A stretch of DNA of 64,000 nt, taken from positions 189,906,001-189,970,000 of the forward strand of contig OZ024742.1 of assembly GCA_964016885.1 (NCBI GenBank). The letters run 5' to 3'. The DNA is from Eledone cirrhosa. Lineage: Eukaryota. The notes under the pieces were generated by a model, which saw only the letters and a program-made list of their open reading frames with translations, made no database searches and was not told where the DNA came from. This document shows, piece by piece, positions 41,794 through 64,000 of the stretch. The position numbers and the translations under genes were made by a program. The number at the start of each line of letters is the position of its first letter. The first letter of the stretch is position 1.

Positions 41794-44266
41794 AGGTGCA
41801 TAATACTTGCTTAATATGCCACACAGTGGGATCAAACATAGTATCCATTGTAGGGCAAATATTTTAACCATTCAGCCATGCCACCTCCACGTTATTCAAT
41901 ATCTACTAACAAACAATACCACCAAGAGCCAATATTGGGGTAACTGAAATAAAATCTGATCACAGGTTGAATATCATGAAAAGAAATGTCAACAGCCAGT
42001 CAGTAGAAGAGGCACCACTAGGTGGGGTGGCTGTTGCAGCAGGTGTTGCTGGCCATTGTCCGTGGAAATGCCTTTGCAGGTTTGTCTGCATGGCACAACC
42101 AAAATACAGCCCCACCCTAGGCGTTGAGCCTGTCACCCTCTCCCCTTCCCCCTTTCTTTCTTCTGTGGTCTAATAGTCCTTGCTCTTTCCTTCCCTTTTT
42201 TCTCATTTATGGCATTTATAGTCCTTTTCTCTACTTTCCTATACAGCCAAATCTGCCCTTCTTTACCACTTTCCTTCTTTTTATTCATTACTTAATTTTT
42301 TTTTAATCTTTTTTTTTTTTTATATTTCCATCATTGTATAACTTCTGTCTGTAAAATATAGTTGACATAATATGTTTATGTATAACATATAACAAAATAT
42401 AATTAATTTCCCTTCCCATTTTATGGTTTGATGAGTGAGCAGTGTATTACCAAAAGAAAGAAAGACAGACAATGAATTGCAGAGTATGATGGATGTTATT
42501 TAAAAAATGGAATGAGATGTCTGGGTTATGTGCTGAGGAAAATTGAAAATAACAGTGCATGGAATAGAGCTAGTAATGAATGTTATGAAGAGAAATGGAA
42601 TGACATGGCTAGATCATGTATTGAGAAAGTATGAAAGTGGGGGTGGAATAAGAGTGTGTGGGGGGGGGGGCTGAAAAACTAATAAGAAGCAGATGGGGGA
42701 CAATCATTTGAGAGATGAAGGCCTTGCCCCATCTAAGGCATAAGTGGATCTGATTAACTACTGATTTGTCCAACCCTTGCTAGCAGGGAAAATGGATGTT
42801 AAATTATGATGATGATAATGATATTCATTGGCAAATTGACAGAAATGTTAATGTATTGATCTAAATACCTTGTGATATTTATACTAGTTCCTTTTATTCT
42901 GAGTTCAAATCTTTGTCCACCTGGGGTTCATAAATAAATACAAGTCTATGGTGTTGGTCTGGCAGATTCTTTAACCCTTTGTCATTTACATTACTCTATA
43001 TTTACTATTATATTTTCATGGTAAAGGCTTTATCTAACATAATTATCTCACATGATATCGAATCTATGAGAATTTTATATTATTTATTTTGAGAATAATT
43101 CCTGAACATCAGCATGAGTGGCAGAAAAGGGTGAGAGATTTCTGGCTGGATACGACTGGTTTAAAAGCTAAAGGGTTAAACCATCACATGGGATGTCTTG
43201 TAGTATATGTTCTGGCTCTTTGACTTCTGAATTCAAATGATACCAAGATCAACTTTGTCTTTCATCCTCCTGAAGTCAATAAATAAAGTACCACCCAAGG
43301 TCTCATGCTTATGAAAAATGTCAGAATTGGTTAGATGGAATGTGTTTAGATGTCCATCAGATGACATGTATATGTAATTCCAGTCCATACTGTAAAGTCA
43401 CAAAAAGTCCGCTAAACTAGTTAAACTTTTAAAAAATAAGTACGGGGGTTGATATGATCGATTAAATCCCTTAAATGCGATACTCCGGTATGGCCAGTCT
43501 GAAAACATAGTTTAGAAACCTACCAGAAATAAACAAGGGCGGTAACTCAATGTATTTCTTTTTTTGTAATGAAAAATACCACATACCACCTTTTTTTTTA
43601 AATAATTAGTAAACATCGTGTTTGACAAAATTTACTTCACATTTTTTTCTTCATTCTCGTCACTGTTCTTATTTTAATTATTCTTTTGTAGTAAATAATA
43701 GAGTTTTCAAAAAACATTACTTTTATGTTATATACATCGTTTTCTAATTTAGGAGTAAGACCGGCAATATTTCATTGGTGCTAGGCACAAGTACTTGGCC
43801 GGGTGTTTTTTTTACTGACTCCAAAATTATGAATGGGCTAATATAACTCCTGGTTCTGGGTTCAATCTCCCTGCCTTGCACCTTAGGCAAATGTCTTCTC
43901 CTATAGTTACAGGTTGACCAATGGCTTCTAAGTGGGTTTTGGTAGGCGGAAACTGTAGAACCTTGTGTGTGTGTGTATATATATATATATATATATATAT
44001 GTATATATATATATGTATATATATATATATATATATATATAAATATATATATATATGTATATATATATATATATATATATATATATATATAAATATATAT
44101 ATATATGTATATATATATGTATATATATATATATATAAATATATATATATATGTATATATATATATATATATATATATATATATATATATATATATATAT
44201 ATATATAAATATATATATATATGTATATATATATATATATATATATATATATATATATATATATAA

Positions 44267-44500
44267 TATAAGATCAAAAGATGGTTAAAAGAGTTCCAAG
44301 TATTTTATTATGCGCATTTCAAAAACAAATATCATCATGGGGTGATATCTGCGTTCTCATCAGATAAAATAGGGAGACATGATATAAAGCTTAAAAACAC
44401 TTGTGAATAGTGAAGTTTTAAATCAATATGTTGATTTAAAACATATTGATTTAAAACTTCACTATTCACAAGTGTTTTTTAATCTTCATATCATGTCTCC
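44267..44500. mobile_element. HHR-bearing palindromic mini-element (same family as 55479-55949), right arm truncated
   Basis: HHR on minus strand at about 44303-44372 (tattttat-CTGATGA..GAAA-tgcgca-TA-ataaaata); palindrome 44374-44500. Confidence 0.8.
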
Positions 44501-46180
44501 AAAAACAATGATCAGGTAAGAAAAATGGTCGCACATGCAATAGGGGCTAGTATAAAAACTACCCTAAAGGGCCACATATTCAAATTCAACGAGAAGATCT
44601 ACACCCAAAATGAGGGAGCAGCCATTGGCGTCAGCATAGCTGGTGACGTTGCCAACCTTTTTATGGTATGGTGGGAAAGGAGACTCAAAGATCTCCTTGA
44701 TGAGAGCTCCATAGACCTCATCATGTACTCTCGTTACGTAGACGACATCAATATAGTAATAAGGATATCCCCACAAGAGAGCACTAACAAGTTTAATTTA
44801 GAACGTAGCACAATGGAAAGCATCCAGCAGATAGCTAATTCCATACACCAGAGTATAACTGTAACTATCGACTACCGTTCCAAACACCCTAACAATAGAC
44901 TACCTGTATTAGCCACGGAACTCTGGATTAACACTATAGACGAGAGAGCCCAAATTCTCCACTCACACTATGCTAAACCCATGGCCTCCAAATACCTCAT
45001 ACTCAAAAACTCAGCAATGTCCAGTAGTGCTAAGTTTAATATTCTGATCGCAGACTTGGTACGAGTGATGAAGTACGTGTCCCGCATGTGCGACACAACA
45101 GAAATGGAAAGACACATCCAACACTTCATCAACCGCATGCAGTTCTCTGGCTACAACCAAAGAGACAGAATCAGAGTATACGAAGGAGCCACGGAGAAGT
45201 ATAAGACCCTCTTAGAACTGGACATGAAAGGAATTTGCCCATTATACAGGAGAAAATCATGGAATAGCTTAGATAGGACTAGACATAAGATAGGGAAAGC
45301 TACCTCATGGTACAACAACCAGAGATACCAGAGTATCATATTTGTGGACGCTACCCCTGGAGGGAAATTAGCTAACCAGTGTAGAAAGGCCCTGAGAAAG
45401 ACCCACTTAAAGATTCAGGTGGTAGAAAAGCCAGGAACCACCATAAAATCCCTGATCAGCAAAACCTACCCTTTTAAGAAAACCCACTGTACTAATAGGA
45501 AATGTATCATATGTAAAGTAAACCCCCGGATAAACTGTAAAACTAGAAACGTAGTCTATAGCATAAGATGTACAGAGAAACATGACAACAACATACATAG
45601 GCGAGACAGCTCGCAGCATAGGTGAAAGGATAGACCAACACTGGGAGGAACTAAAAGGACGAAAAATCGGTTCAGTACTATACGAACATGCCAGACAACA
45701 ACACGACGGTAACATAGACAACATAGAAATTAGAATAATATCTAAACATAGAAATGACCCAGCAGATAGGCAAATCAGAGAGGCCAGCGAAATAGAACTT
45801 AGAAGGCCAAGGCTAAACAGAAAAAATGAATGGAATAACAACAACACCCTAACAAACAACACTGACCTAAGAGAAGTATAAATAAATAAATAAATAAATA
45901 CATACACAAGCACAATAACAACAAACACATATAAACACACACTAGTAAACTAAGATAGAATACAATAACCAATACACAGTCACCCAAACACGAACACATC
46001 AAACAAAACACTATACATACACGCAAATGCATGCGCAGAGAAGACAAAATAATAAACAAATAAATAAATAAACAAACAAAATAAAGATGGCGTAGGCATA
46101 CAATACAACGGGAGGAAACATAATAGCACCACTGACGATGTTGCAGATGTGCAACGAAAGAACTTTGTTAGACTATATAT
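44501..46180 (+). mobile_element. Penelope-like element, lineage B (second subfamily), 5'-truncated
   Basis: ORF 44525-45625 (GAAIGVSIAG, YSRYVDD, RMQFSGY, CTNRKCIIC, VVYSIRC); frameshifted EN 45582-45881 (YIGET, EH..H, REASEI). Confidence 0.92.
46127..46170 (+). ncRNA. Minimal hammerhead motif at PLE 3' end
   Basis: CTGACGA-t-gttgca(gatg)tgcaac-GAAA-gaac-TT; stem I is weak. Confidence 0.55.
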
Positions 46181-46407
46181 ATGTGTTTGTGTCTATATTG
46201 TATCTGTATACATATATACATGTACGTGTACATACTTTTATATATACATATATATATATATACATATATATATATATACATATATATATACATATATATA
46301 TATACATATATATATACATATATATATATACATATATATATATACACATATATATATACATATATATATATACATATATATATATACATATATATATATA
46401 TATATAT

Positions 46408-62394: not shown

Positions 62395-63212
62395 TTTTTC
62401 ATTCATATATATTTTTATTTGTCTGACCCAAATTCTCTTGGTCGCGGTTTTCGGCTGTGCGAGTGATTATTTAAGCATTGTCTCAGTGTGTTGGTATTTA
62501 AACGTTAGTTATAGCTCTGGTTTATCCAAACTATTGGGCACTTTGCGACACATTTCGAAGATTGTGTTTCGTTATTTCGTTGGCCGATGTTCCGATTCTC
62601 GATAATTTATATGTATTTATCTCCAGTCTTTAGCTATTGATCAGTTAATTTTATTGATTTTTTAGTTGATCCTATTGACTGATGAATAGCTCATGTTAAT
62701 TTTAACCCGTCTGTTGAGAACTCTAATTCGATATGTGATATTTTGTATTTTTACAATAATATACACTACTGAATTCATTCGCCTAATATAGGGTTCCCTC
62801 CCTTGCTACACCCCACGTGGATTTAGTAACGGGTTCCCTTGTATTATTGAACTAAACGCCTGTTGAAGAAGTGGTTTCCTCATTCATCATCTTACCAGAA
62901 GCCATATATTTTTTATGTAAGCTGACGGTAACTGATTTAGGAGCCGCAGAAACTCACATGCTGGAATTTACCATCTTTCCAGGGGTCCGGGTAAATTTTT
63001 CATTCATATATATTTTTATTTGTCTGACCCGAATTCTCTTGGTCGCGTTTTTCGGCTGTGCGAATGATTGTTTAAGCAATGTCTCAGTGTGTTGGTATTT
63101 AAACGTTAGTTATAGCTCTGGTTTATCCAAACTATTGGGCACTTTGCCACACATTTCGAAGATTGTGTTTCATTATTTCGTGGGCCGAGGTTCCGATTCT
63201 CGATAATTTATA
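62395..63212. mobile_element. ORF-less direct-repeat element in (TA)n
   Basis: ~215-bp direct repeats 62395-62612 and 62996-63212. Confidence 0.75.
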
Positions 63213-63650
63213 TATATATTATATATATTATATATATATATATATATATATATATATATATATATATATATATATATATTATATATATATATATATATAT
63301 ATTATATATATATATATATATATTATATATATTATATATATATATTATATATATTATATATATATATATATATATATTATATATATATATATATATTATA
63401 TATATTATATATATATATATATATATTATATATATTATATATATATATATATATATTATATATATATATATATATTATATATATATATATATATTATATA
63501 TATATATATATATTATATATATATATATATATTATATATATATATATATATATATATATATATATATATATATATATATATATTATATATATATATATTA
63601 TATATATATAATATATATATATATATATATACATATATATTATATATATA

Positions 63651-63845
63651 TAACGAAGGAAATGTGGTAAGGAACCAGGTGGACCATAACGCACCAAAGT
63701 ACTCAATACTTAGGGTAGTAGAGTGGGTAATAGGAACAAGTAAGACCCCGACGGCTGAGCTCAAGCCGTTTCGACGGCTAATTCTGTTCGCATTAGCCGT
63801 GGAAACGGCTTGAGCTCAGCCGTCGGGGTCTTACTTGTTCCTATT
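63651..63845. mobile_element. Second copy of the half-hammerhead hairpin element
   Basis: Near-identical to 35831-36038 but with a different hairpin centre. Confidence 0.8.
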
Positions 63846-64000
63846 ATATATATATATATATATATATTATATATTATATATATATATATATATATATATA
63901 TATATATACATATATATTATATATATTATATATATATATATATATATATATATATATATATATATATATATATATATATATATATACATATATATTGTAT

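What the first reader, a model, noticed from the sequence alone, without database searches (positions are those of the whole stretch)
43975..64000. (TA)n-targeted community of Penelope-like elements and ORF-less hammerhead mini-elements
Seen: in 20 kb at least 12 separate inserts each begin and end in (TA)n. Four are coding PLE remnants; at least seven are ORF-less elements built like PLE ends (inverted or direct terminal repeat plus a one-sided tail), most with an intact or decayed CUGANGA..GAAA motif. The mini-elements fall into at least six sequence families that do not match the ends of the coding PLEs here. Established: PLE pseudo-LTRs carry minimal type I HHRs and form inverted/tandem inserts, and retrozymes are non-autonomous HHR retroelements. 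Inference: a diverse set of ribozyme-bearing elements mobilised by PLE RT/GIY-YIG, with (TA)n as a self-renewing landing pad. I do not know of a description for this taxon.
Basis: partly seen in the sequence, partly recalled or inferred. Interest (0 to 1): 0.78.

Follow-up and report, generated by a model that had tools for sequence, protein, structure and literature searches.

The report
Penelope stumps and retrozymes in TA-repeats
This TA-repeat patch holds twelve retroelement inserts: four of its seven gene-less "mini-elements" are broken-off ends of full-length Penelope-like jumping genes, and three are separate 600–680-base non-coding families with predicted hammerhead ribozymes, whose copies often start right at the predicted cut site, which suggests the ribozyme shapes the RNA that gets copied.

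Summary
In detail: 12 inserts lie between (TA)n tracts, 7 of them ORF-less and from 7 families. Genome searches show that four minis (A, B, D, H) are the terminal repeats (pLTRs) of full-length PLEs elsewhere, three Hydra-type and one Neptune-type, so they are 5'-truncated stumps. One further insert is an RTE-like LINE end. Three minis (C ~680, E ~650, G ~602 nt) are ORF-less units that run on only into (TA)n or into their own start, never into a gene, in the copies examined: non-LTR retrozyme-like families. G-type hammerheads (U3-A8 core) match 1,782 genomic sites (control 0) and their stems covary. With 3'-end queries, 5' ends pile up in a 28-nt window at the predicted cleavage site (E 15/28, G 13/23, C 9/25 copies at risk; 1–2 expected), but not in A, D or H (4/136). 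This likely records ribozyme cutting or its ligation scar; a structural stall, a promoter or TA microhomology are not excluded. TA targeting, pLTR hammerheads, tails and PLE-derived retrozymes are published, and this scan noted similar mixes in other genomes. Cleavage, expression and circles are untested.

The parts
43976..63986 (.). Long perfect and degenerate (TA)n tracts separating the inserts (target microsatellite)
44256..44500 (-). A-family inverted pair (hammerhead core 44363->44317) joined to the 5'-truncated end of PLE1; chimeric junction at 44501
44501..46209 (+). PLE1: 5'-truncated RT-GIY-YIG remnant (CX4CxxC linker, Neptune/Nematis type), 3' UTR, hammerhead-like motif at 46132
46410..50957 (-). 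PLE2 main copy: Hydra-type ORF end (50957->50185), 3.8-kb 3' UTR containing its own CA/TA-rich stretch, hammerhead with long stem II near 46620->46480
   Evidence: L253 contiguous
50957..51691 (+). PLE2 inverted 5'-truncated arm (50957-51550, 99.3% identical to 46410-47003); 51551-51691 is its inferred tail
51859..52651 (.). B: inverted pair of pLTR stumps of a Neptune-type PLE; U3-A8 core TTGACAA at 52437 (+), cleavage triplet not resolved
   Evidence: (L217)
53104..54027 (-). C: 1.4-mer of an ORF-less ~665-680-nt retrozyme-like unit; hammerhead core starts at 53461, decayed in this copy
54378..55156 (.). D: inverted pair of pLTR stumps of a Hydra-type PLE; hammerhead with U4C core and palindromic stem III
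   Evidence: (L219, L220)
55195..55409 (-). E: 215-nt 3' piece of an ORF-less ~650-nt unit; begins 2 nt after the predicted cleavage site and so carries no ribozyme
55480..55949 (.). A: inverted plus tandem pLTR stumps of a Hydra-type PLE; three intact minimal hammerheads (55605 +, 55761 +, 55572 -)
   Evidence: (L121)
56766..58800 (.). PLE3: head-to-head pair of 5'-truncated copies (same family as 9050-11813); hammerheads at 58601 (+) and about 57018 (-)
59072..61201 (+). PLE4: 5'-truncated Hydra-type remnant; hammerhead-like motif from 61034
61495..61838 (+). F: 3' end of an RTE-like LINE (ORF fragment, ends in (TAGA)n); not a PLE and not ORF-less
   Evidence: L005 flank shows the ORF continuing 5'; RTE label recalled, no Pfam hit
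62395..63208 (+). G: 1.35-mer of an ORF-less ~602-nt retrozyme-like unit; hammerhead core at 62863, predicted cut after 62987
63653..63844 (.). H: inverted pair of very short pLTR stumps (3' half of hammerhead only) of a Hydra-type PLE; second copy at 35830-36036
   Evidence: (L293)

Best explanation
The region is a TA-microsatellite patch holding 5'-truncated copies of eight Penelope-like families, one LINE end, and three ORF-less 600-680-nt tandem-unit families that are likely non-autonomous retrozymes copied by Penelope-like enzymes. SHOWN: A, B, D and H recur as both terminal repeats of RT-endonuclease elements elsewhere. C, E and G copies continue only into (TA)n or into their own start. 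Each family has one or two fixed 3' ends at short TA-like words, and variable 5' ends. INFERRED from published PLE biochemistry: the GIY-YIG endonuclease nicks (TA)n and the RT starts inside the RNA at one or two fixed sites; two sites give the inverted arm and the 'tail'. INFERRED here: for C, E and G the hammerhead would cut multimeric transcripts into monomers. A linear monomer would give a cDNA that runs off at the cut (E's 215-nt copies). A ligated circle or uncut multimer would let the RT pass once and often stop at the next junction (1.3-1.5-mers). For H, and less clearly A, the short uniform stumps would be run-off copies from the RT start nearest the RNA's own 5' end. The mobilising enzyme is likely Hydra-type; that step is the weakest.
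For: Parents: L121 has A at 463-669, ORF pieces 687-3147 and A again at 4170-4379. L217 has B-ORF-B; L219 and L220 have D-ORF-D. L293 has H-ORF-H. Non-autonomy: in 30 loci each, no shared extension beyond the tandem unit. 3' continuations are TA or tandem in 74/75 (C), 45/47 (E) and 70/72 (G), and the other five are TA-like. No PLE protein similarity below E 0.2; longest stop-free run 79-116 aa. Among the first 30 of 1,782 G-ribozyme pattern hits, 14 show a 565-624-nt tandem period and none has a same-strand PLE ORF joined upstream without a TA break. Ribozymes: C and G majority sequences fold into the three-way junction unaided, and the core is kept in 68-78%-identical relatives. In 26 G-type sequences 93% of cells pair, 63 cells change on both sides, and 0/500 shuffles reach this; RNAalifold gives the same junction. 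5' ends at -6..+21 of the predicted cut: E 15/28 (P 2e-12), G 13/23 (4e-9), C 9/25 (5e-7); controls A 0/37, D 1/11, H 3/88. Second pass: 27 of 28 C upstream partials and all 6 E ones stop before the site. A CTC(C/T)-type word follows the RT start within about 12 nt in A, D, H, C, E and G (seen by eye, no statistic).
Against: No RNA data, so cleavage, circles and expression are untested. Only 30-60 top-scoring copies per family were read out of thousands (1,156-3,723 search candidates), so a rare coding parent of C, E or G could be missed. E has the cleanest pile-up but the least canonical fold: a 2-nt insertion before C3, RNAfold does not give the junction, and two copies end at -1 and two at -4. 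E's +1 also falls on TCAGTC and G's +15 on TCATTC, both initiator-like words (motif recalled). G and C have TA-like stretches at about +14..+29 that could attract junctions, and BLAST ends over-extend there. In G, 6 of 26 upstream partials pass the site by more than 50 nt. Frangieh et al. found hammerhead cleavage unnecessary for insertion by an autonomous PLE in vitro. The cap-derived extra G at A's uniform 5' end is not significant (8/31, P 0.26; 8/23, P 0.07). Covariation counts related sequences, and part of the core was fixed by the search pattern.
Confidence: 0.72

Rival explanations
1. All seven minis are stumps or internal-deletion products of autonomous PLEs; the parents of C, E and G are simply rare or extinct and were missed.
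For: True for 4 of 7. The search scores only 40 candidates per query. Earlier scan notes on other genomes found such parents.
Against: For A, B, D and H a parent turned up within about 30 loci or their flanks. For C, E and G none did in about 60 loci each plus 30 pattern loci. G and C have diversified into 68-78%-identical subfamilies; the G ones keep the ~600-nt period. An old deletion origin would still make them non-autonomous families today.
Confidence: 0.15
2. C, E and G are non-autonomous, but the 5' pile-up is not caused by cleavage: the RT stalls at the 3' edge of the folded ribozyme, or transcription starts there, or the junction is chosen by TA microhomology.
For: Ends smear from -4 to about +20 (to +30 in C) rather than sitting at +1. 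There are initiator-like words at E +1 and G +15. E's fold is imperfect. C and G have TA-like stretches just downstream.
Against: The cleavage windows are no more TA-like than 55-99% of unit windows. H's 7-bp GC stem III does not stop the RT (3/88). Two C copies begin exactly at +1 (L088, L328). E junctions show no extra G. Three unrelated units share the position.
Confidence: 0.3
3. All seven minis are independent non-autonomous ribozyme families.
For: None matches a coding PLE inside the window. H and A copies are fairly uniform in length.
Against: Full-length pLTR-ORF-pLTR parents exist for A, B, D and H.
Confidence: 0.02
4. The region is a misassembly of TA-flanked repeat fragments.
For: No contig of the public runs bridged neighbouring inserts, so the order was not independently confirmed.
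Against: It lies 190 Mb into a 379-Mb contig. Each insert has the same anatomy as dispersed copies. Inverted arms differ from each other (94-99% identity). The same TA-flanked nesting is seen around hundreds of other loci.
Confidence: 0.03

Closest known systems
Non-LTR retrozymes of animals (Cervera & de la Pena 2020, PMC7229834; Li, Clavereau & Pollet 2026, bioRxiv 10.64898/2026.07.22.740005)
   Same: ORF-less head-to-tail units with one type I hammerhead per unit, low GC, many monomer or partial copies, and co-existence with PLEs, which both papers propose as the mobiliser.
   Different: Units of 600-680 nt exceed the 150-450 bp given for most animal repeats, though they are within Li's 51-972 bp range. 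They are mostly dispersed 0.3-1.5-mers in (TA)n rather than long arrays. G has a U3-A8 core and long stems II and III. No sequence link to a PLE pLTR was found, unlike 21 of 57 Xenopus families. The passages I read report no 5'-end pile-up at the cleavage site.
Hydra-clade PLEs (Craig et al. 2021, PMC8557442)
   Same: Parents of A, D and H show RW(I/R), DKT, a CxCX5C linker and no CCHH; PLE2 and PLE4 show the CxCX5C linker. They have a C-terminal GIY-YIG, hammerheads, (TA)n insertion, inverted and tandem structures and a tail.
   Different: 3' UTRs are long (about 1 kb in A; 3.8 kb with internal microsatellite in PLE2). Tails are 80-150 nt rather than 30-40 bp. H reaches roughly 50,000-170,000 copies. 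Clade was assigned by motifs, not by a tree.
Minimal hammerheads of metazoan PLE pLTRs (Cervera & de la Pena 2014, PMC4209133)
   Same: Palindromic stem III (A, D, PLE2, PLE4), an unpaired base at the foot of stem II, the U3-A8 variant, and most motifs solo or in short inverted pairs from truncated PLEs.
   Different: C, G and H have a stem III predicted to be stable as a monomer.
PAc Poseidon element in vitro (Frangieh et al. 2024, PMC11167929)
   Same: AT-rich target, and two internal RT start sites that give the tail; matches the two fixed 3' ends of A, B, C, D and H.
   Different: PAc starts without homology to the target, whereas junctions here fall at short TA-like words. No reads ended at PAc's cleavage site; this agrees with A, D and H here but not with C, E and G.
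Non-autonomous Chlamys elements such as MRC1 (Craig et al. 2021)
   Same: ORF-less PLE-mobilised units forming pLTRs and head-to-tail copies.
   Different: Those resemble their autonomous partners at the 3' end, and Chlamys elements mostly lack hammerheads.

Membership tests
EN+ PLE pLTR stump (A, B, D, H) | Sequence occurs at both ends of an RT + GIY-YIG ORF | tested here: met
   L121, L217, L219/L220, L293. Pfam RVT_1 and GIY-YIG pass for L217 only; the Hydra-type ORFs were recognised by tblastn and motifs.
EN+ PLE pLTR stump (A, B, D, H) | Inverted or tandem 5'-truncated structure with a one-sided tail (two 3' ends) | tested here: met
   3' ends: H +20/+103, A +53/+143, D +44-49/+199, B two ends 60 nt apart
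Hydra clade (parents of A, D, H) | RWK-like and DKT motifs, CxCX5C linker, no CCHH, C-terminal endonuclease | tested here: met
   Translations read against section 11 of PMC8557442
Hydra clade (parents of A, D, H) | RT phylogeny places them in the clade | not tested
   No reference set was fetched
Non-LTR retrozyme (C, E, G) | No ORF; head-to-tail unit of fixed length | tested here: met
Non-LTR retrozyme (C, G) | Type I hammerhead in the unit | tested here: met
   Full core in 30/42 C and 25/35 G near copies; kept in divergent relatives; covariation in G
Non-LTR retrozyme (E) | Type I hammerhead in the unit | tested here: inconclusive
   Core boxes in 14/21 copies, but stem I needs a 2-nt insertion and MFE folding differs; no divergent relatives were available
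Non-LTR retrozyme (Li et al. 'active' criterion) | [quoted passage not shown] | tested here: inconclusive
   Met by some G-type loci (L173/L179, L393/L394, and pairs 539-621 nt apart); not seen in the C or E loci read; not met by the window copies
Non-LTR retrozyme (C, E, G) | Self-cleavage and expression as linear or circular monomer RNA | not testable with these tools
   No RNA holder listed
Non-LTR retrozyme (C, E, G) | Homology to a PLE pLTR | tested here: inconclusive
   None among fetched loci; the whole genome could not be searched exhaustively
Naiad/Chlamys PLEs | N-terminal GIY-YIG; no canonical hammerhead | tested here: not met
   All parents found have a C-terminal endonuclease and a hammerhead
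Rfam hammerhead models | Match to a curated hammerhead model | tested here: not met
   None among the 150 matches shown; none

The most novel reading that the evidence does not exclude
Thousands of genomic copies record the ribozyme at work. In three independent PLE-mobilised retrozyme families the hammerhead cut, or its ligation scar on a circle, sets where reverse transcription ends. In the autonomous PLEs beside them it does not; there the commonest stumps are strong-stop copies from a transcription start that in H lies inside the hammerhead and disables it. This would give an in vivo answer to what hammerheads do in the PLE/retrozyme cycle.
Probability: 0.45. Interest if true: 0.68.

Novelty: new member of a known kind. 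Interest (0 to 1): 0.45.

Why it matters
Craig et al. call hammerhead function in endonuclease-bearing PLEs unclear, and Frangieh et al. found it dispensable in vitro. Rolling-circle copying of retrozyme RNA by PLEs is proposed but unproven. Insertion 5' ends that pile up at the predicted cut in non-coding families, and not in coding ones, make both questions testable from genome sequence in any species. They also supply natural substrate families (C, G) and nearly intact candidate enzymes in one genome. The practical lesson for annotation is that uniform short hammerhead repeats need not be non-autonomous: H is uniform and very abundant yet is a PLE stump. The rest (TA targeting, pLTR hammerheads, tails) is ordinary PLE biology.

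Tried and rejected
Rfam: no hammerhead shown; the output was dominated by microRNA noise from TA/CA repeats. RNA evidence: no RNA holder listed; this is no evidence on expression. Laying contigs of three runs on 54400-55940 showed the families in high copy but no piece bridging neighbouring inserts, so it is uninformative on assembly. 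First pattern search for H's 5' half assumed a CUGANGA core and returned junction artefacts; the real core is U3-A8/C3-A8. I first called the A/D/H parents Neptune-like (notes 1-3) and corrected this to Hydra-type. The L221 ORF is not H's parent. Matches of other loci starting at 44502 and 50957 are the window copies' truncation points, not shared junctions. Cap-derived extra G at A and H stumps is suggestive only. The 'PLE2' probe used from then on was out of frame, so its hits mean only near-identical DNA; other probes cover that clade. In one search one pair was entered as 12-142 instead of 12-143; one search gives the right pair. In the hazard test the 5' ends were entered by hand: one duplicate C locus (L346) was dropped, rearranged L347 was counted as passing through, three C copies ending in the tail were counted as first pass, and G positions were shifted by one period. 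Family counts in the window cannot be compared with the random sample because the families were defined from the window. PLE-protein hits were 7 in 20 kb here (4 are the coding remnants; 3 short ones lie in B and H, where no ORF was identified), 4 in the next 20 kb and 23 in 400 kb. The host is not known; an octopus-like repeat landscape is my untested impression and guided two literature searches. No supplements were read; the Repbase-type consensus files of Craig et al. and the octopus repeat library may already hold these families.

Full report
Observation. The stretch 43975-64000 splits into 12 inserts between (TA)n tracts. Four carry PLE coding remnants (PLE1-4), one (F, 61495-61838) is a LINE 3' end, and seven are ORF-less: B 51859-52651, C 53104-54027, D 54378-55156, E 55195-55409, A 55480-55949, G 62395-63208, H 63653-63844. 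PLE2 is a single insertion: its arm 50957-51550 is 99.3% identical to 46410-47003, and locus L253 carries ORF, CA/TA-rich UTR and hammerhead end contiguously. PLE1 has an A-family palindrome glued to its truncation point. Perfect (TA)n makes up 17.6% of the stretch against a mean of 4.6% and a maximum of 12.8% in 40 evenly placed 10-kb pieces, and the next 20 kb stay at 16-23%. Family 3' ends abut (TA)4 far above the 6.9% background.

Each mini was searched in the 3.0-Gb own genome, and 30 loci were read per query. A flanks a frameshifted RT-endonuclease ORF on both sides in L121. B does so in L217, D in L219 and L220, and H in L293. In each, the one-sided tail is the start of the next unit's 5' UTR. 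By the motifs in section 11 of Craig et al., the parents of A, D and H are Hydra-type (RW[I/R], DKT, CxCX5C, no CCHH), a clade for which (TA)n insertion and hammerheads are reported. B's parent has DKG, CX4CxxC and CCHH, Neptune type, and passes Pfam RVT_1 and GIY-YIG. So four of seven minis are 5'-truncated PLE ends. H is nonetheless uniform: 66 of 93 bystander 5' ends lie at -46..-30 from the predicted cut, inside loop II. It is also abundant: 13 copies in 400 kb, about 52,000-166,000 genome-wide. A clusters more weakly near -123 (7 of 27 bystander copies). Both positions sit on initiator-like words (motif recalled). An extra G at A junctions is not significant. Run-off from the RT start nearest a capped 5' end is therefore inference.

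Three families behave differently. In C, E and G no locus extends beyond a tandem unit (periods about 680, 650 and 602 nt). Their 3' ends continue into TA or into their own start in 74/75, 45/47 and 70/72 cases, and the other five are TA-like. They have no PLE protein similarity below E 0.2 and no stop-free run above 116 aa. A pattern for the G ribozyme matches 1,782 sites, with 0 for the reversed control. Of the first 30 by position, 14 show a 565-624-nt period and none joins an upstream same-strand PLE ORF without a TA break. These samples are small against thousands of copies, so a rare parent is not excluded.

Ribozymes. C has a canonical type I hammerhead with stem III CCC-UAAA-GGG. It is kept, with compensating changes, in relatives of about 70% identity, and is decayed in the window copy. 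G has a U3-A8 core (U3-G8 in the window copy), an unpaired A on each side at the foot of stem II and a long stem III. Over 26 sequences 93.3% of cells pair and 63 cells change on both sides, with 0/500 shuffles as high; slid controls pair 28-47%. RNAalifold predicts the same junction. Relatedness inflates these counts and part of the core was fixed by the pattern, but stem I and the cleavage triplet were not. E has both core boxes and long stems II and III but needs a 2-nt insertion before C3, and RNAfold does not give the junction. U3-A8, the unpaired base and palindromic stem III are described by Cervera & de la Pena 2014. Rfam showed no hammerhead.

Where copies begin. New queries used only the last 110-118 nt of each unit, so 5' ends were free. 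Ends at -6..+21 of the predicted cut were E 15 of 28 copies at risk, G 13 of 23 and C 9 of 25, against 1.5, 1.9 and 1.1 expected from the truncation rate elsewhere in the unit (P 2e-12, 4e-9, 5e-7). The same window holds 0/37 A, 1/11 D and 3/88 H bystander ends. On the second pass, 27 of 28 C upstream partials and all 6 E ones stop before the site, while 6 of 26 G ones pass it by more than 50 nt. The window's own E copy starts at +2. Against a pure cleavage reading: ends smear to about +20 (+30 in C), four E copies end at -1 or -4, E +1 and G +15 lie on initiator-like words, and C and G have TA-like stretches just downstream. The 28-nt windows themselves are not unusually TA-like.

Mechanism. 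Published: a PLE protein cuts AT-rich DNA and starts reverse transcription at two internal RNA sites, which gives the tail; hammerhead cleavage was not needed in vitro and no reads ended at the site (Frangieh et al.). Retrozyme multimers self-cleave and circularise, and PLEs are the proposed mobilisers. Shown here: fixed 3' ends at short TA-like words, two ends in A, B, C, D and H. Inferred: (TA)n is nicked and primes at those words. Cut linear monomers of C, E and G would give short copies that end at the cut; circles or uncut multimers would give 1.3-1.5-mers. A Hydra-type enzyme is the likely donor, on shared target and a CTC(C/T) word after the start (seen by eye). Inserts cluster: H is 2.8 times denser in flanks of other families than in evenly placed DNA, and tracks TA content (rho 0.38, P 0.015). 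That fits shared targeting of TA-rich patches. Self-renewal was not tested, though PLE2 carries its own microsatellite.

What is known. Papers seen: PMC8557442 (passages; sections 11 and 15); bioRxiv 10.64898/2026.07.22.740005 (parts 1-3 of 5); PMC7229834 (parts 2-4 of 6); PMC11167929 and PMC4209133 (parts 1-2 of 4 each); PMC13282606 and PMC3846280 (passages). No supplements were read. Searches turned up no report of retrozyme 5' ends accumulating at the cleavage site, nor of cephalopod retrozymes; the library is incomplete and the host is a guess. Earlier scan notes report PLE stumps and a TA-inserted retrozyme-like unit in other genomes, and none in this genome.

Verdict. Over half of the 'community' is ordinary truncated PLE debris, and three families are new members of the non-LTR retrozyme kind. 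The cleavage-site pile-up is the one result a specialist might use. Interest 0.45.

Noticed in passing
window 61495-61838; L002, L005, L023, L131 flanks; L126 7547-8436: An RTE-like LINE ending in (TAGA)n also sits in (TA)n: 12 of 16 3' ends are followed by (TA)4 within 35 nt, and there are 4 copies in 400 kb. A second, non-PLE microsatellite targeter.
   Followed up: partly
window 44256-44501; L232, L250, L223/L239/L247: Chimeric junctions between families: an A arm on PLE1, and H stumps fused directly behind the 5' half of other families' hammerheads. Possible template switching at ribozymes; the pattern search selected for these.
   Followed up: no
window 47242-48971 and L253: PLE2 carries about 1.7 kb of CA/TA-rich sequence inside its 3' UTR, so each long insertion seeds new microsatellite.
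   Followed up: partly
L217 4429-8014: B's parent has a long N-terminal or upstream coiled-coil-like region ahead of the RT and a 3' UTR of about 1.8 kb.
   Followed up: no
L126 1597-1845 and 2828-3037 (next 20 kb): Short hammerhead-less pieces of the PLE3 tail region lie alone between TA tracts.
   Followed up: no
window 37310-39233 (-): Broken gag/protease/RT-like frames of an LTR-type retroelement; not examined.
   Followed up: no
window 2-2161, 9050-11813, 25266-26003, 33569-34553: Further PLE remnants (Hydra-type; PLE3 family) and LINE 3' fragments next to TA tracts outside the finding.
   Followed up: no
L230, L183, L150, L338 (C relatives); L387-L416 (G relatives): C and G are superfamilies with several subfamilies at 68-78% identity; G subfamilies have periods of 565-624 nt.
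   Followed up: partly
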